Assembly (NCBI GenBank): GCA_964016885.1
Contig: OZ024743.1
Span: 64,542,001-64,606,000 of the forward strand
Direction of reading: 5' to 3'
Origin: Eledone cirrhosa
Lineage: Eukaryota
DNA: 64,000 nt
The notes under the pieces are model-generated. The model did not search any database. It saw only the letters and a program-made list of their open reading frames with translations, and was not told the origin of the DNA. Below, one piece after another: positions 12,077 through 57,603 of the stretch; the first letter of the stretch is position 1; each line of letters starts with the position of its first letter. A program made the translations under genes and the position numbers.

Positions 12077-12320
12077 AACAAGTAGGACTCCGACGGCTGA
12101 GCTCGTTCCTATTACCCACTCTACTACCCTAAGTATTGAGTACTTTGGTGCGTTATGGTCCATCTGGTTCCTTAGCACATTTCCTTCGTTATATATATAT
12201 ATATATATATATGCGCCCGGCCGATTAACTCACTCGATATGCAAATTAGGCTGCTCAGCCGTTAATATGCATAAGGAAAGTATATACTTTCAGACGTTCA
12301 ATCATCTGGCAGGGAGGTAT

Positions 12321-12363
12321 ACGTTGCTGATGATAGCTAATAAGCTTGAAACTAGTACAGCGT
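12321..12363 (+). ncRNA. Minimal type I hammerhead ribozyme
   Basis: ACGTTG-CTGATGA-T AGCT AATA AGCT T-GAAA-CTAG-TA^-CAGCGT; palindromic stem III ACTAGT. Confidence 0.85.
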
Positions 12364-12626
12364 TCCTTTGTCAGTGTTGAACAAATGAGCAGCGATGGTT
12401 GCTAGCCACTGTACGGCTTAATTCGGGATGTTTGTTTACAAACACACCGAGCATTATAATAAATGTTCGGTGAATCCATACGTACATATATATGTGTGCA
12501 TGTATGTATATATATAGATACATACTACTGTACGTCTGTATACATATATGTATGTACGTGTACATACTTATATTTAAGTAACAGCCGTACTAAGAGTGAG
12601 AAATGAAATTTCGTTTCATTTTTTCC

Positions 12627-12691
<65 letters not shown>

Positions 12692-14929: not shown

Positions 14930-15209
14930 ATATATGAAATAAAAATGGTGTAGACATTACAATATAATACAATACAATAGGAGGGAACATAATAGTACCA
15001 CTGATGATGTTGCAGATGTGCAACGAAAGAACTTTGCTAGACTATATATATATATATTTAACCATTGGTCAATCAATGATAAACATTGATTGCCAAATAA
15101 ATTAACTATGGAGATATAAAAGATACAGTAGCGAAAACCAACCAAACAGTGAGTGTGTTCTGTTATAATTTCTGGCAATATTATTACAACAATATGACCC
15201 TCCCCAAGT

Positions 15210-15263
<54 letters not shown>

Positions 15264-30544: not shown

Positions 30545-30551
<7 letters not shown>

Positions 30552-31340
30552 ATACTTGGGGAGGGTCATATTTGTGTAATATTGCCAGAATTAATAACAG
30601 AACACACTCACTGTTTGGTTGGTTTTCGCTTTTCGCTTCTGTGTCTTTTATATCGGTAATCTAACTTACTCGGTCCTCAATGTTGCCATTGACTGACCGA
30701 CGGTCAAAAATAATACAGATACAATATAGACACAAACACATATATATAGTTTATCATAAATCTTTCATTGCACATCTGCAACATCGTCAGTGGTGCTATT
30801 TTTTCCTCCTGTTGAATTGTATGGCTACGCCATTTTTATAACATTTTTATACATTTTTATAACATTTTTATAACATTTTTATACACAAGCACAATAACAA
30901 CAAACACATAAACACACATTAGTCACCCAATCACGAACACATATCGCACATCAAAAAAAACACTATACACACACGCAAACGCATGCGCAAAAAGACAAAA
31001 TAAAATAAACAAACAACCAAATAAATAAATAAATATATAGACAGACTGAATAAAAATGGCGTAGCCATACAATTCAACAGGAGGAAACAATAGCACCACT
31101 GACGATGTTGCAGATGTGCAACGAAAGATTTATGATAAACTATATCTATGTGTTTGTGTCTATATTGTATCTGTATTATTTTTGACCGTCGGTCAGTCAA
31201 TGGCAACATTGAGGACCGAGTAAGCTAGATTACCGATATAAAAGACAGCGAAAAGCGAAAACCAACCAAACAGTGAGTGTGTTCTGTTATTAATTCTGGC
31301 AATATTACACAAATATGACCCTCCCCAAGTATAACAATAT
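30545..31340. repeat. Inverted repeat with ~290 bp arms
   Basis: 30545-30835 versus 31047-31340. The family also occurs at 14940-15217 and 50060-50290. Confidence 0.85.
31094..31137 (+). ncRNA. Hammerhead-like motif with extra U after A9
   Basis: CACCA-CTGACGA-T-GTTGCA GATG TGCAAC-GAAA-GATT-TA^-TGATA; weak stem I. Copies at 14996(+) and 30752-30795(-). Confidence 0.45.
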
Positions 31341-31674
31341 TTGTTTCGACACACGATTTCATATAAAAAACCTCGCAAAACTAATTCATCGCCGTTATAT
31401 ATATATATATAGGGGTAGGACAGAAATGACAAAGAACCATTCGGTGAGAGAACGATACATATATATATAATAAATTTAATCTGAGTTTTTCGAATATTAA
31501 TAATAACATTCGATTCGTTTGCAATTATGCAAACAAGCCTCATTTTTAAAGCGATGTCAGTAGAATGAGCCCCTCATTCTTGCTCTTGTGTTGGCATGTA
31601 AACATATATATATATGTAAACATATATATATGAAAAGAATCACCAATGTTCAATACATTAATAAGTAATTTAAT

Positions 31675-32661: not shown

Positions 32662-35139
32662 CTAGGGTGGGTAAAATTCCTGAGATCCATGGACGAGTTC
32701 TCTCCAGCGGTCTCTGTCCCTCATTATCGCTGCCATGTCCTGCGTCTCCAACAGACCAGTGTCTATCCTTAGGGCATCAACATACGTTAACCTTGGTCTT
32801 CCTCTTCCAGTGTGTCCATGCAGGGGCTCCAACAGGAGCACTGAGTGCAGTGTCAACTCTGGATGTCGGTGAGCATGTCCAGCTAACCTCAGTCTCCTCT
32901 GTGTCACTTTTGAGCTGACTTTTGGGATGCTCCCATACAGCTCTGAGTTTTTCATCCTCAGTGTATACTGATTAATGTTCAGAGACATCCTCAGCGTTCT
33001 CGTGTAGCACCCATCCACCATCTGAGTGAGTTTCTTGGTCAGTGTCCAAGTCTCAGATCCGTACAGCAGTACAGACTCCACTGCAGCAATGAAGAGGCGG
33101 ATCATCAGGCGGATCTTCCACACCGATCTCAATCTGTGGCATGCCGCCCAGGCTTTGCTCTTCTTCGCAACCACATCATCTTCCGTATTCCCAATCTTTG
33201 CTCCCAAATACAGGAAGTCCTCAACTAATTCCAGCGGCTTCCCGCCTACATTAGTAATCCCCTCTGGCTTCTCAACATTCTCTACCAGATATTTTGTTTT
33301 AGTCTCATTCATTCTCAGCCCCACACTCATCGACACAGTCTCAACTTCCTACATCAAATCCTCTGCCTCCTTCACTGTATTTGTCACCAAAACTATGTCG
33401 TCGGCAAATTCAGCATCTGATACCTTTTTCGCCTTAACTCTCCTGCTCTGAGCCGGTGTTACAGTAAAGTCAGAGTCCTGGTGTTTCTCCAGTGCAAGGC
33501 GCATACAATAGTCCACTATGATGATAAAAAGGTAGGGAGCCAATGTATCTCCCTGGAGCACTCCAGCCAGTATCTCAAAAAACTCTGTCATCCCATCAGG
33601 TGTAATGACTTGGGCTTTAGTGTTGGTGTAGAGCAGTGATAGCAGGTTCACTATCTTCTTGGGAATTCCATAAGCCTGTAAGATCTTCATCAGGCAGTGA
33701 CGGTCCACAGAATCAAAGGCCTTCCTAAAGTCAACGAAAACCATGACCGCAGGAAGGCACTTTGCTCTAGCTCCCTCTAATATCCTCCTCAGCATCAGGA
33801 TATGACTGGTGGTTGATCTTCCCTCTCTGAAGCCGTTCTGGTTGTCCCTGACCTTCTTCTCCATCTCGGGCTGGATCCTGTTAAGAATCATCCTGTTGAG
33901 GGTCTTTGCCACAAGTGACGTCAGTACGATCCCCCTGTAGTTGTTGGTGTCAATGCACATCTGAGTAAGGAGGGTAGTGAAGATCCTTGCTGGTACTTCC
34001 ATAACAACACCAACCGAAATAGAAGACTACTGAGAGACACCCTGCTGGAGGCGAACTTGATAGCGACCAACCTAAGGTTTAGGAAGAATCCGTGGAAGAT
34101 GTGGACCTACATCTCAGATATGCACCTGTCCAAGTACCAGATTATTTTCATTCTGGTGAGGAAAAAGTGGCGGAATAGTGTTCTGAACACAGAAACATAC
34201 AACTATTTCAGTACACTGGGTAGTGACCACCGGCTTGTTATGAGTGAGGTCCGGGTGAGCTTAAGAAAGAGCAAGGCTCGGCCCCGGAGAGCAATCAATG
34301 ATTGGGGAGCTTTCAAGGAAGATGATAAGCTACAGGAGAGGTTCACAGTGGAAGTGAGGAACAAGTTCAGTGCTCTGTGTGGAGAGACAGGGGAGAGAGA
34401 GAGATTGGATGGACTGAGGAGAGTGTGACGAGGAGGTACGGGTACTTCACCAGTGCAGTGGTGGAAGCAAGTGAGACCCTGGTGCCGAGGAGAAAGAACA
34501 AAAGGAAGCACGTCAGCTGTGCAGACCCAAAAGTGTGTGCAGCCAGAGAACACCTGAAAGCTGCCAAGGACCAATTCTATGCTGATCCTACGGAGGAGAG
34601 GAAGGAGAATGTGGAAGTGATGAGGGAAGAACTCTGTACCGCTTACACTGAGGCCAGAGAGGAGGCACTGATAGAGAAGATCAGAAGTGTGGAGAGAGCG
34701 GTTGGCAGATCTGGATGTAAGGAGAGTTGGATGATCATCAACGAGATCACAGGGAGGAAGAGAAGGTGTTCAAGTCAGATCCAGGGAACAGAGCCCGAGG
34801 ATAGGAAGAGGAAATGGCTAGACCATTTTAGGACCCTACTAGGAGAGCCGCCCTCCACAGCCCAGAACACTGGGGAGATCAGGCGGCTGTTTGAAGAACT
34901 GGATATTAAGACATAGCCCTTCACCACAGATGAGCTTCAGAGAGTCAAGAAGAAGATTAAGGAGGGCAAGGCTCATGGAGAAGATACAGTGGCATCAGAG
35001 TTGATGAAGAGGTGTGATTTTGATGATATCATCCTGGAGTTCTGTAACCAGGCACTGGAGAAGGGAGTTGCCCCGAATCAGTGGAGGATCAGTAACATCG
35101 TCCCAGTGCTAAAGGGAGATCTCTCTAACACCAACAACT
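32662..35139 (-). mobile_element. RTE-clade LINE, 5'-truncated, with inverted 5' segment
   Basis: Minus 32662-33950 encodes RT (NYRGI, FVDFRKAFDSV, GVLQGDTLAP, FADD, YGSETW, GRPR). Plus 33951-35139 encodes the EN C-terminus (WTY, GSDHRLV) and linker up to KGDLSNTNN. Confidence 0.92.
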
Positions 35140-38475: not shown

Positions 38476-41400
38476 CTACAGGCTGATATAGAGAGAAGGC
38501 CCATTCACTCGGGCCATTCTCGCCACTTTCACCCACCTTTCATAAAACTTGCTGGGGTACAGCACCTCTCTCTCCATCCTGATTCTTCTTCCAAAGTGGT
38601 ATTTGAAAAAAAGAATCAGTTGTTGGCCGGAGAGAAAGGTGTCTGACCTCAGCCTTTTCAACCTTGTCCACCATACAACCTCTTTCGCCATAGCTATCAC
38701 ACAAAGGAAAACCGCCTCTCCTTCGTTTTTGAAGGAGGGTGGCGGTTTGATCATGACAATGGACTCGGTGGTCAACTGGATTGGTCCCACCCGCGACAAT
38801 AGTCGTTCTACATAGCCCCACGGGTCAGTGACGCCCGGGCAGTGTATGAATGCGTGCGCGACGGTTTCTTCGTCTCGCACGCACCTCGGACAGATCTTTT
38901 TTGCAGGGTCCCTGCCCGAGCGCCCATGTCTGTAGAGCTTGTCTCGAACTGGTAGAGCTCCTCGGTAGCACTGCCAGGCCAGGGACTTTTGGAAGTTGTC
39001 CATCGGTCCCGGGCGGATATAAACTGTCCTACCGAACAGACTGGCCAGTTCATCTTCCTCTACGCCTAGAGTTTCACCGAGCGCGTCGTCGCACTTGCTG
39101 CGGACCAACCCTCTATAGAATGACGAAGTGGAGTCTCCACTGATCGCCGGGTCCGCCTGCCAGAGGGCTGTGAGCGCCTGAGCACATTCGATGTGCCAGT
39201 CGCCCATTTTCCTCAGTCTTTGCTTGACCCAGGACTGCAGCTCGGTCAGCGAGACGAGTCGTGGGAAGGCTCGCCTCACGAACGGGGCCCACACCGGTTG
39301 TCCGGTGAGGAATACGTAGAGATGCCGCAGCCTGAGCGCGTGTTTGCGCATCGTCAACCACGGCATCCCCAGCCCTCCGTTAGAAGGGTGTTGGCAGCAG
39401 ATGGATCTTCTCACCAAAGGAGCCCGCCTCTTCCAAAGGAATCGGAAGAGCGCTCGCTCCATTTTGGCGAGCGTTTTGGCTGGACAAGGCACGACGGTCA
39501 AGCGGTAGTAGATGGCGGACGCTATAAAAGTGTTCGCCACCTCCGCTCGACCTTTCAAGGATAGTTTGCACTCGGCCCACTTCTGGGTGAGTGCAAACAC
39601 CTTGGCCGTCACTTCGTTCCAGTTCTTCTCCACCTGGAGGTCCGGACCAAACCAGACCCCGAGCAGCTTTACCGGTCCTTCCGTCCAGCGTCCGACGACG
39701 CCATCGGAAGGCATCGGTCTGCCTCTCCACGATCCGAGTTGCAAACCGATGGATTTGTCCCGGTTCAGCTTCGCTCCTGTGACACTTTCGTATTCCTTCA
39801 GTAAGGTGCCGACTTCCTCGATTTGCGAGGCGCTCGACACCATTACTGTCACGTCGTCGGCGTAGGCCGACGCCGTTTTCCGCAGTCCCGGTTCCAGGGG
39901 GATGCCCTGCAATAGCTCCAGCTTCCGCAGTAGTGGCTCGAGAGTCAGTACGTACAGAAGGGAGGAGAGAGGGCATCCCTGTCGAATGGATCGCGTAATA
40001 TGGAACGGTTCCGAGAGGTAGCCGTTCACCTTGACCCTTGAGCAGATGTTGCTGTTGTGCATTGCAGCAATCCAGCCCCTGAACACGGGTCCGAAGCCTG
40101 CCGCCTCGAGCACCGCATCCAGGTAACGATGGTCAACCCTATCGAAAGCCTTAGACTGATCCAAGTTGATCATGGCCCCACCGAAGCCGGGTTTACACCC
40201 TACCCTCTCTATGATGTATCGCATGAGGTGGAGGTTGTCGTGTATGGACCTGGTCGGGATTGCGCATGTCTGCGCTTCTCCCACCAGGTTCTCGACGACA
40301 AGCGCCAGCCTCTTTGCCAACACTTTGGCCAAAATCTGTAACTCTGTGTTTAGCAGAGTTATGGGCCGGAAGTTGCCTATGTCATCCCCCTTATTCTCGT
40401 CCTTCCTGATTAGTGTGACCACGCCCCGGTTACAGAACTGGGAATTCTCCCGTTCTGTTGCCAGTTGCAGTAGACCGCTTCCAGGAGACCGGAGAATAAG
40501 TCCGGCATTGCTACGTAAAATTCGTAGGGTAGACCGTCGAGACCTGGAGATTTGCGTTTGCCGCATTGGCTCAGCGCGTCCCCTATCTCAGCGGCTGAAA
40601 TCGGCTTTTCGCAGAACTTTGCCTCGCTGTCCGAGAGTCGCGGTAGGCCGTCGAGGTATGGACCGAAATCCATAGCCCCTCCCGGCGCACCGCCCCTCCC
40701 GTTGAGCAAAGTGCCGCTGAAAGGCCGCACACATCTGCTTCGGCTCACGTATCACGCGTCCGTTTTGGTCCTTCAAAGACCGAATCGTGGACTTGTTCCA
40801 CTTTTTGCCTCCGTCACTCGGGCCCAGCTAACAGCTTTGGCTCCCTCGTTTCCCAGAGCACGTATTTTGCTTCTGACAACGCAGCCCTCGTGCTTTGCGT
40901 CGAAGAACTGGTCCAAGGCCGTTCTCGTTGCTAGCACGCTGGCTACGTTGCCACTTCTAATTGCCTCTTCTACTTTATCTATCAGTTCCTTCTCGGTTCT
41001 ATTTCTATCTAACGCTAATTCTTTACTAAAATCTATCGAGTCTAATCTAACTGCCCTCTTGAGAGAGTACCACCATCTGTTGTTGACAATGGCCCCTGTC
41101 AAGTGCTGTTTAACTAAAGTTCTAATCCGTCTACTGTAGGCTTTGCTTGTCGGTAACGACAAGTTCAGCTTCCAGTAGCCGGGTCCTTGTCTATGGGTTC
41201 TATCAAGGTTGGCCATGCAGGTCACTAGTTTGTGATCTGAATAGGCAACCATGAACATTTGTGGACAGCTTAACATGTCCCTATCCTTATTTCTAACTAG
41301 AACCCTATCTAGGTACGATCTAGATGTTCCGCTACGATTAGTCCACGTCCACAGTGGCGCAGTCGGAAAATCTAGTCGATATCTATCGGCCAGGTCAAAT

Positions 41401-50356: not shown

Positions 50357-50659
50357 TTATCCTGGGTTCAATCGGGGATAACCACAGCAAGTAAGGTACT
50401 CAATATATACCAGAGTATAAATGTTTAATATAGAAAAGCTTCTATAGGACTAGAATAAGGAGTGGCACTCCAATCTGAACTTGCTTATAGAATTCTTTCT
50501 GCCTTTATCACTCTAAATATAAATTATAGCTTTAAAGAATTAGCTTTTAAAGAATTCCCTTTTCTTAACCCATCAACCAATGACCTCCACCCATCCAAAT
50601 CCCCACCCTTTCCTACCACCAGAAAATATATAAATACCACCATATTTACTTGGACAGTC

Positions 50660-50710
50660 AACTTCCTGATGATTTCTCACGAATGAAACAGTTCTAGTCC
50701 TGTAGAAGCT
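50660..50710 (+). ncRNA. Type I hammerhead ribozyme
   Basis: AACTTC-CTGATGA-TTTC TCAC GAAT-GAAA-CAG TTCTAGTC CTG-TA^-GAAGCT. Confidence 0.8.
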
Positions 50711-50711
50711 T

Positions 50712-50782
<71 letters not shown>

Positions 50783-52122: not shown

Positions 52123-53536
52123 GAATATGAATAAACGAAGTTAATTTTAACCTGTTGACTTACACTTCTTGTTTATATATATATTATATACATATACATA
52201 TGATATGCAAGGAATCTCTTTAAACCGGACCTCTTTGGACCGGATATTGGATAAACTGGATGAAATCTGAGTTAAGAGACTGACTGTTAATGTTGAGAGT
52301 TCCACATTCATTTAAAAAACATCCATGTCGTTGGGGGATGTATTCTGGGTGTGCCTGTTGAGTACTGTATATTCATATGATAAGAATCCTTCATAAGTAT
52401 ATTTAGACCTTTCAACAATAGAATCATGTTATATAATGGAAACTAAGGTTTCTGTTCTCTGTTATGTGTTGGTTGTTTGCAGATTGTTCTGCATACATAA
52501 CAACTTGTTATATTATATGTACGAGGAGAGATAATAGTAAAATGACAAAAAATAAGAATCGAAAGTGAGCAACATTTCATCAGTTTCGCCATTTTTGGTC
52601 ACAAAACTGGGCAGTGTCATATATAACCTGCAGGAAAGGAAGGGATACTAATACCAGGAGTTAATTGACTGCTTCCTTCTCGTGCTGCTCACCGTTGATA
52701 TCTTTGGTGTTCTTCGTTCCTGAACTGCCGTTTTTCTCTGTAAAATTAGGAGTGCATCTCGCCTGAAGAAGCAGACCAGTGAGGTGGAGTAGTTGATGCA
52801 GTGGGTGTCGCTGGCTGTTCTTTATGGCAATTATTTCGCCATTTTGTTCGCTGAACGGTTGCAACGCAGCTATGATTAAACGATTCAGTGATGGTGGTGA
52901 TGATGTGGTGGTGATGGATGGTGGTGGTGGTGGTGGTGGTGGTGGTGGTGGTGGTGGTGGTGGTGGTGGTGGTGGTGGTGGTGGTGGTGGTGGTGGTGGT
53001 GGTGGTGGTGGTGGTGGTGGTGGTGGTGGTGGGGATGATGTGGTGGTGGTGGAGGTGGTGGTAATGGTGGATGGATGGTGGTGGTGGTAGTAGTGGTGAT
53101 GGATGGTAGTGGTGCCGGTGGTGGAGGTGGTGGTAATGGTGGATGGTGGTGAAGGTGATAGTGGTGGTAGGGCGCATTGTGTACATACATGAATTTAAAG
53201 AAATAGACTTTCACACACACACGTACATACATGCGCACACGCACACAAGTGTGTATATATATATATACACACAAGCAAATATATATGAATATACATACAT
53301 ATATGTATACAGACGTACAGTAGTATGTATATATATATACATACATGCACACATATATATTTAAGTAACAACCGTACTAAGAGTGAGAAATGAAATTTCG
53401 TTTCATTTTTTCCGTTTATCGTTTTCGGTACCCCGGCCGATTAACTCACTCGATATGCAAATTGGGCTGCTCAGCCGTTAATATGCATAAGGAAAGTATA
53501 TACTTTCAGACGTTCAACCATCTGGCAGGAAGGTAT

Positions 53537-53579
53537 ACGTTGCTGACGATAGCTAATAAGCTTGAAACTAGTACAGCGT
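53537..53579 (+). ncRNA. Minimal type I hammerhead (same family as 12321)
   Basis: Identical to 12321-12363 except at N7 (CTGACGA). Confidence 0.85.
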
Positions 53580-53857
53580 TCCTTTGTCAGTGTTGAACAA
53601 ATGAGCAACGATGGTTGCTAGACACTGTACGGCTTAATTCGGGTTGTTTGTTTACAAACACACCGAGCATTATAATAAATGTTCGGTGAATCCATACGTA
53701 CATATATATATGTGTGCATGTATGTATATATATATATACATACTACTGTACGTCTGTATACATATATGTATGTACGTATACATACTTATATTTAAGTAAC
53801 AGCCGTACTAAGAGTGAGAAATGAAATTTCGTTTCATTTTTTCCGTTTATATATATG

Positions 53858-53962
<105 letters not shown>

Positions 53963-56825: not shown

Positions 56826-56862
56826 CACACATACATATATATATATAGTTTTAATATAGAAG

Positions 56863-56913
56863 AGCTTCTACAGGACTAGAACTGTTTCATTTGTGAGAAA
56901 TCATCAGGAAGCT
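56863..56913 (-). ncRNA. Type I hammerhead (50660 family)
   Basis: AGCTTC-CTGATGA-TTTCTCACAAAT-GAAA-CAG..CTG-TA^-GAAGCT. Confidence 0.75.
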
Positions 56914-57471
56914 GGCTGTCCAAGTAAATGGTAGTATTTATATCTTTCCTATCTGGTGGTGGGAGGGGTGGGGGATAGGTATGGGTGGAGGTCATTGGTT
57001 GAACGATTTAAAAAAAGGGAGTTCATTAAAAGCTAATTCTTAAAAGCTATAGTATTAACAAAGGCAGAAAGAATACTGTAAACAAATTCAAAATTGGATT
57101 ACCAATCCTTGTTTATCACTTAGACTAACAATGTCTGTAAGACAGGTGTCTACAGGATGGGTGGGGTTCAATGGTTTAAAGAAAAGGGACATTCTTTAGA
57201 AGCTAATTCTTTGAGGTTGAAGTAAGAGTGACAAAGACACCTGTCTTACAGACATTGTTAGTCTAAGTGATAAACAAGGATTGGTAATCCAATTTTGAAT
57301 TTGTTTACAGTATTCTTTCTGCCTTTGTTAATACTATAGCTTTTAAGAATTAGCTTTTAATGAACTCCCTTTTCTTTAAATCCTTTAAATGACCGCCACC
57401 CATCCCAATCCCCAACCTCTCCTACCACCGGATTAGGAAAGATATAAATACTATCATTTACTTGGACAGCC

Positions 57472-57522
57472 AGCTTCCTGATGATTTCTCACGAATGAAA
57501 CAGTTCTAGTCCTGTAGAAGCT
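57472..57522 (+). ncRNA. Type I hammerhead (50660 family)
   Basis: AGCTTC-CTGATGA-TTTCTCACGAAT-GAAA-CAG..CTG-TA^-GAAGCT; 6-bp stem I. Confidence 0.85.
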
Positions 57523-57603
57523 CTTCTATATTAAAACTTTTATACTCTGCTATGTATTGAGTACCTTACTTACTGTGGTTACCTCCGATTCAACCCGGAA
57601 TAA

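What the first reader, a model, noticed from the sequence alone, without database searches (positions are those of the whole stretch)
53357..53850. Permuted 431-nt HHR monomer showing an end-to-start junction
The 12212-12631 copy runs CCCGGCCGA..CCGTTTAT. Here the 3' end is joined directly to the 5' start through CGTTTTCGGTA, giving a ~63 bp terminal redundancy with period 431. The two HHRs differ only at the freely variable N7. This is the clearest sign in the window of a circular or tandem template.
Basis: partly seen in the sequence, partly recalled or inferred. Interest (0 to 1): 0.75.

Follow-up and report, generated by a model that had tools for sequence, protein, structure and literature searches.

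The report
Hammerhead retrozyme copy with Penelope footprint
This is one old copy of a roughly 430-base non-coding repeat with a hammerhead (self-cutting RNA) motif found thousands of times in this animal genome, whose insertions end at two fixed points 60 bases apart, likely the footprint of a Penelope-type jumping-gene enzyme copying a circular or multi-unit RNA.

Summary
Observation confirmed, reading corrected. The junction is real but ordinary: 4,540 exact copies genome-wide, and 10,397 of the hammerhead motif. The locus is not a random permutation. In 199 sampled insertions, 276 of 307 outer 3' ends fall at two fixed points 60 nt apart (A, B), usually running into (TA)n. 109 insertions are head-to-head two-armed; 82 of the 88 with both ends fixed pair one A with one B. 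5' ends are scattered and do not pile up at the ribozyme cut site. This is the published Penelope-like-element anatomy (partial tandem, inverted 5' arm, 'tail'); an autonomous RT+GIY-YIG element here has the same layout. Most arms read through the cut site, so the template was a circle or an uncut multimer. Young arrays favour one template; some insertions are mixed. No RNA data; partner element not identified. The N7 difference is an uninformative CpG change. The scan found this family before on other DNA (e1-8665316; same family). Verdict: new member of the non-LTR retrozymes.

The parts
53292..53359 (-). Short inverted arm (unit positions ~286-356; possibly a decayed B end reaching ~53277), head-to-head with the long arm
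53357..53419 (+). Extra copy of the unit's last 63 nt (the 'terminal redundancy'): the 5'-truncated second lap of the long arm
   Evidence: 62 of 63 identical to 53788-53850
53420..53430 (+). Unit-to-unit junction CGTTTTCGGTA; ordinary internal sequence of the repeat
   Evidence: 4,540 exact matches of a 26-mer across it, control 0
53420..53850 (+). One full 431-nt unit (u1-431)
   Evidence: 917 candidates, 40 scored, the near-full-length hits 95-100% identical
53537..53579 (+). Type I hammerhead motif: stem I 6 bp, CUGANGA 53543-53549, U.U then 3-bp stem II, GAAA, ACUAGU palindrome 53567-53572; predicted cut after 53573
   Evidence: stem I pair 121/157: T-G 198, G-T 27, A-T 14, T-T 9
53694..53784 (+). 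Long TA-rich predicted hairpin; inner arm breakpoints are frequent near its feet (partly an alignment effect)
53787..53791 (+). End site B (TATAT), 3' end of one arm in many two-armed insertions
   Evidence: (33 of 49 scorable B ends stop here)
53792..53850 (+). ~60-nt 'tail' between sites B and A, with a near-perfect palindrome at 53818-53835
   Evidence: (2,441 exact 29-mer matches)
53846..53850 (+). End site A (TTTAT), 3' end of this arm
   Evidence: 62 of 81 scorable A ends stop here
53851..53960 (.). (TA)n microsatellite, likely insertion target
   Evidence: (TA)3 follows 73 of 81 A ends and 42 of 49 B ends
12212..12631 (+). Second copy in the window: single A arm, 5'-truncated near u11, between (TA)n runs

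Best explanation
The locus is one copy of an abundant non-coding repeat with a hammerhead motif, likely a non-autonomous retrozyme inserted by a Penelope-like element's reverse transcriptase and endonuclease. Shown: 3' ends are fixed at two sites 60 nt apart, most run into (TA)n, many insertions have two head-to-head arms with one A end and one B end, and arms run through the ribozyme site for up to about ten units. Inferred: the enzyme nicks both strands of a TA repeat and starts reverse transcription inside the RNA, at site A on one strand and site B on the other. Each cDNA runs back through a template with no end at the ribozyme site, and the two cDNAs are joined. I put the template at about 55% a ligated monomer circle released by two hammerhead cuts (likely as a dimer through ACUAGU) and 45% an uncut linear multimer. 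The '63-bp redundancy' is where this A arm stopped after 1.15 laps. With one hammerhead, this copy could not release a monomer and is likely a dead end.
For: Ends: 276 of 307 outer 3' ends at A (158) or B (118); of 88 head-to-head insertions with both ends fixed, 82 A+B, 6 A+A, 0 B+B, against about 44 A+B if ends were chosen independently (my arithmetic). 5' ends spread; 4 of 195 at the cut site against 3.2 expected. The same anatomy is described for PLEs (PMC8557442 passages; PMC3846280 passages), and the tail is explained by two internal RT start sites with both strands cut and extended (PMC11167929, parts 1-2 of 4). Autonomous PLE ORFs are present (150 GIY-YIG hits scored; RVT_1 plus GIY-YIG in 6 of 10 long ORFs). 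One family has a type I hammerhead in its 3' region and, in L163, two opposed arms ending about 45-50 nt apart in (TA)n. One template per insertion: subfamily-diagnostic sites disagree 3.7% within an arm and 5.6% between opposite arms against 34.2% between loci. L199 has two variants in all 9 units of both arms, and only its own 8 pieces matched at 100% among 40 scored of 1,426 candidates. Stem I keeps pairing through double changes.
Against: No autonomous element sharing this unit's sequence was found in 50 GIY-YIG loci, so the partner is inferred. 26 of 82 testable insertions have a pair of pieces discordant at 2 or more diagnostic sites, some strongly (L047: 9 of 20; L086: 5 of 9; L209: 6 of 21), which a single monomer circle does not give. 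In the young set (44 loci), 14 variants are shared by only some laps against 9 locus-private ones shared by all. Period-2 arms L198 and L200 are not periodic over their whole length, and L198's second arm differs from both unit types, pointing to local duplication or heterogeneous templates. A 42-kb or longer array exists as a possible linear source. The active dimer fold was not the predicted minimum, and the monomer fold sequesters the core. In the one PLE tested in vitro, cleavage was not needed for insertion. The tail is 60 nt, not 30-40. This locus's short arm matches exactly only to about u356, not clearly to B.
Confidence: 0.82

Rival explanations
1. Same Penelope mobilisation, but the template is always a linear, uncut multimer read from existing arrays (with RT template jumps and later unequal crossing-over); circles play no part and the ribozyme is incidental to insertion.
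For: Mixed-subfamily units inside single insertions; imperfect period-2 arms; long arrays with higher-order spacing; cleavage not needed for PAc insertion (PMC11167929); 8 of 9 Xenopus retrozyme dimers did not cleave (preprint 10.64898/2026.07.22.740005).
Against: Locus-private variants present in every lap, in both arms for 5 of the 8 loci (9 variants); no source for the L199 haplotype among 40 scored hits; core positions vary less than the rest (1.6% against 3.2%; confounded by CpG and subfamily sites).
Confidence: 0.4
2. The second arm is made by fold-back self-priming on the first cDNA, and end B is an endonuclease resolution cut rather than a second RT start.
For: 11 of 82 A+B insertions have near-symmetric centres against 1.7 expected; self-priming and EN resolution are proposed in PMC3846280 and PMC8557442.
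Against: 71 of 82 centres are asymmetric with spread offsets; B arms are often longer than A arms; some symmetric cases lie in the unit's own hairpin.
Confidence: 0.2
3. One reading: randomly permuted insertions of an HHR-closed circle, this junction being the tell-tale.
For: The junction is real and widespread; arms cross the cut site.
Against: 3' ends are not permuted; the junction lies about 150 nt from the predicted ligation site and marks end site A, not the circle's closure.
Confidence: 0.07
4. Local tandem duplication or assembly artefact.
For: Microsatellite-rich flanks.
Against: 4,540 exact junction copies; a contig of another run crosses the junction (X7 record 17).
Confidence: 0.01

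Closest known systems
Metazoan non-LTR retrozymes (Cervera and de la Pena 2020, PMC7229834, passages read; Li, Clavereau and Pollet 2026, 10.64898/2026.07.22.740005, parts 1-3 of 5 read)
   Same: Non-coding, AT-rich unit of a few hundred nt with a type I hammerhead; monomers, dimers and long arrays; thousands of copies; short palindromic helix III and a U.U at the base of stem II, as in the axolotl motifs; co-occurs with PLEs.
   Different: Unit of 420-431 nt is just above the 170-400 nt quoted. The text read links retrozymes to PLEs by co-occurrence and pLTR similarity; it does not describe fixed A/B ends or two-armed insertions. Expression, cleavage and circles are untested here.
EN+ Penelope-like elements (PMC8557442 and PMC3846280 passages; PMC11167929 parts 1-2 of 4)
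   Same: Partial tandems, 5' truncation, inverted 5' arm, tail on one end only, AT-rich or (TA)n targets, hammerhead in the terminal repeat.
   Different: No RT or GIY-YIG ORF; tail 60 nt rather than 30-40; the whole element is the repeat unit; no sequence match to the autonomous copies examined.
Non-autonomous Chlamys PLEs such as MRC1 (PMC8557442 passage)
   Same: Non-coding, multicopy head-to-tail insertions mobilised by PLEs.
   Different: Those resemble their autonomous partner at the 3' end, and that clade lacks canonical hammerheads.

Membership tests
Metazoan non-LTR retrozyme | Type I hammerhead motif in each unit | tested here: met
   Core, stems I-II and palindromic III present; 10,397 exact 32-mers; no Rfam hit at gathering score
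Metazoan non-LTR retrozyme | Tandem units of a few hundred bp, dimers to multimers | tested here: met
Metazoan non-LTR retrozyme | Non-coding, no LTR structure | tested here: met
   No ORF of 150 aa or more spans the unit; a 68-aa frame across the junction does not extend (open frames 68-114 aa in 150 scored hits) and is frameshifted in a young subfamily. PBS and PPT were not searched.
Metazoan non-LTR retrozyme | RNA self-cleavage | not testable with these tools
   Needs a bench assay; the dimer fold was not the predicted minimum
Metazoan non-LTR retrozyme | Expressed as linear and circular RNA | not testable with these tools
   No RNA holder listed; one guessed-RNA run laid 0 contigs
Penelope-like element (autonomous, EN+) | ORF with RT and GIY-YIG | tested here: not met
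PLE-mobilised non-autonomous element | Partial tandem, inverted 5' arm, tail at one end | tested here: met
   82 of 88 A+B
PLE-mobilised non-autonomous element | Insertion into AT-rich or (TA)n DNA | tested here: met
   73 of 81 and 42 of 49 ends; no genome-background control was run
PLE-mobilised non-autonomous element | Sequence shared with an autonomous partner's terminal repeat | tested here: inconclusive
   None in 50 loci around GIY-YIG hits out of 10,596 candidates

The most novel reading that the evidence does not exclude
A Penelope RT-endonuclease dimer copies one small ribozyme-made RNA circle from both strands of a single break, starting at two sites 60 nt apart and running several laps each way. 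The genome records this as mirror-image arrays with one A and one B end and template-private variants in every lap. This would be direct genomic evidence for the proposed circle-to-tandem route of animal retrozymes.
Probability: 0.45. Interest if true: 0.7.

Novelty: new member of a known kind. Interest (0 to 1): 0.42.

Why it matters
How animal retrozymes move is proposed, not shown, in the papers read: PLEs are named as candidates on co-occurrence and pLTR similarity. This family carries the PLE-specific tail signature with a near-strict one-A-one-B rule. That names the enzyme class and gives exact predicted start sites for an in vitro test with purified PLE protein on circular against linear RNA. 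Four literature searches listed no paper describing this anatomy in a retrozyme; the library lacks most subscription journals. The flagged locus itself is an ordinary, old member, and younger arrays of the same family are the better test material.

Tried and rejected
Rfam scan of the window: 0 hits at gathering score. RNA evidence: no RNA holder listed; run X1 laid 0 contigs; neither is evidence. Pile-up of 5' ends at the hammerhead cut: not seen (4 of 195 against 3.2). Two 3' ends near the cut (L004, L030): L004 is a later insertion splitting one arm; L030 unexplained. Autonomous partner: none among 50 GIY-YIG loci; the unit copies in L142 and L159 are separate insertions. A hammerhead pattern with a different first stem II base returned mostly variants of this family (273 matches, 100 listed). 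The 2,941-bp spacing on C1 was a 7-unit satellite period, not an autonomous element. The 68-aa frame across the junction was rejected as incidental. RT ORFs in the window (38476-40587, 33349-34026) look LINE-like and are not linked. A-to-I editing scars: only 2 of 9 all-lap private variants were A>G, too few to say. Period-2 arms as dimer circles: not clean. The isolated hammerhead fold is not unusually stable (z 0.61). The whole-unit circular fold gave z about -11 against 40 home-made shuffles, largely from the TA-rich hairpin, so it was not used as support. A recalled Pfam accession was not in the library. A look-up of earlier findings by sequence returned nothing. The preprint's supplements (closed) may list related families.

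Full report
Observation. The second copy (12212-12631) is 97% identical and differs in the hammerhead only at N7. That change is a CpG transition at a site that is C in 147 of about 155 pieces, so it says nothing about selection. Both copies end in (TA)n.

The ribozyme motif. 53537-53579 reads as a type I hammerhead: 6-bp stem I, CUGANGA, a U.U followed by a 3-bp stem II, GAAA, the ACUAGU palindrome, and a predicted cut after 53573 (numbering from my own knowledge of the motif). One stem I pair varies as T-G 198, G-T 27, A-T 14, T-T 9, T-A 4 (pieces, not independent events). Short palindromic helix III that works as a dimer is described for animal hammerheads (PMC4209133 passages; PMC7229834 passages). 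Against: no Rfam hit, no unusual stability alone, and the active dimer was not the predicted minimum. Activity is untested.

The family. The genome (3.0 Gb; organism not established here) holds 2,441 exact copies of a tail 29-mer, 4,540 of a junction 26-mer, 10,397 of a hammerhead 32-mer and 1,998 of a young-subfamily 32-mer; backward controls were 0. The junction is therefore internal sequence of a tandem unit. An array of at least 42 kb lies at C1:96.997-97.039 Mb (left end not reached; 98 units compared, 9.65% mean difference). Related sequence is present in runs of two other coded organisms.

Ends. I mapped the unit on fetched loci chosen as best hits or by position, mostly on contig C1, from pattern lists. 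I dropped overlapping loci, array loci, the GIY-YIG loci, clusters at a fetch edge, clusters under 100 nt and pieces under 82-85% identity. In 199 insertions, 158 outer 3' ends fall at site A (u418-431), 118 at site B (u360-379) and 31 elsewhere. 109 insertions are head-to-head; pairs were A+B 82, A+A 6, B+B 0, A+other 12, B+other 7, other+other 2. The first, smaller set gave 49, 1 and 0. Sampling on the tail motif disfavours B+B but not A+A. Ends are sharp: 62 of 81 scorable A ends stop after TTTAT and 33 of 49 scorable B ends after TATAT, mostly into (TA)n (7 A and 20 B ends were not scorable). 5' ends are spread, with 4 of 195 at the cut site against 3.2 expected; 71 of 99 A arms and 56 of 73 B arms cross it. 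So a cleaved linear monomer cannot be the usual template, and the ends are not random permutations.

Mechanism. This is the layout published for Penelope-like elements: partial tandem, inverted 5' copy, and a tail on one end only (PMC8557442; PMC3846280). The anole PLE protein cuts AT-rich DNA on both strands and starts reverse transcription at two internal RNA sites that bound the tail (PMC11167929). The genome holds many RT+GIY-YIG elements. One family, with a Cys motif before the nuclease like that described for Neptune/Nematis, carries its own type I hammerhead, and L163 shows two opposed arms ending about 45-50 nt apart. I infer that such an enzyme inserted this family, priming at A on one strand and B on the other. 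No sequence-level partner was found in 50 loci. The window locus is then a 494-nt A arm joined to a short inverted arm whose B end is decayed or truncated.

Circle or multimer. Pieces of one insertion usually share a source: diagnostic sites disagree 3.7% within arms, 5.6% across arms and 34.2% between loci, with a 3.35% background within insertions. In 44 young loci, 9 locus-private variants in 8 loci are in every lap and 14 variants are in some laps only; 144 are in one lap. L199's haplotype matched fully only at its own locus among 40 scored of 1,426 candidates, all listed hits being on C1. Against a single circle: 26 of 82 testable insertions contain a pair discordant at 2 or more diagnostic sites, and the period-2 arms L198 and L200 look locally duplicated. 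11 of 82 centres are near-symmetric (1.7 expected), which suggests fold-back in a minority. There are no RNA data. I put the circle at about 55%.

Comparison and novelty. It works like a PLE-mobilised non-autonomous element and meets every testable defining feature of metazoan non-LTR retrozymes; cleavage and circular RNA could not be tested. It is not an autonomous PLE. The retrozyme-PLE link is proposed in PMC7229834 and the 2026 preprint. The A+B rule in a retrozyme was not found in searches. The scan reported this family before on other DNA (e1-8665316; L288 is 94% identical to this unit with one A and one B end) and reported sister families with the same layout; these notes are not independent evidence. 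My reading of fixed PLE-type ends was recorded before that look-up.

Verdict. Real, abundant, and explained to the level of element class. The flagged junction is an ordinary by-product; the interest lies in the family-wide footprint. New member of a known kind; interest 0.42.

Noticed in passing
window 30546-31390 and 14930-15220: Another hammerhead-bearing repeat family (CTGAYGA at 15001, 30790 minus, 31099 plus); the 30.5-31.4 kb copy is two-armed, and its terminal sequence also occurs in GIY-YIG loci L135, L140, L144, L149 and L154, so it may be a PLE terminal repeat.
   Followed up: partly
window 50560-50720 and 56840-57530: Third hammerhead-like family (CTGATGA at 50666, 56907 minus, 57478 plus), again with opposed arms near (TA)n.
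   Followed up: no
G000 C1:96,996,600-97,039,030 (L116, L061-L063, L117) and C1:51.77-51.79 Mb (L203, L204): The unit has also become satellite DNA: about 100 units with higher-order spacing ending at site A, and a second array of about 40 units. 21 of 98 units in the first keep a hammerhead region identical to the window's.
   Followed up: partly
L198:1015-5766 and L200:1037-2973: Arms with alternating X/Y units; in L198 most X units have a mismatch in stem II, which could make a ribozyme-skipping dimer, but periodicity is incomplete.
   Followed up: partly
L158:4590-4860: A different short repeat ending in a related palindromic tail (GAAACGAAAT...TTTCGTTTC) before (TA)n, with an ACTAGTA motif upstream; possible sister family.
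   Followed up: no
L163:2260-5525 (also L147, L151, L152, L155, L162): Autonomous-type PLE family with a type I hammerhead (AGTACT palindrome) downstream of the ORF and two alternative 3' ends; L163 is a 99.7% perfect 3.3-kb palindrome.
   Followed up: partly
window 38476-40587 and 33349-34026, minus strand: Reverse transcriptase ORFs, the first with zf-RVT (LINE-like), not linked to the finding.
   Followed up: partly
window 53492-53507: Perfect 16-bp palindrome GAAAGTATATACTTTC inside the unit, half-deleted (8 bp) in the youngest subfamily.
   Followed up: no
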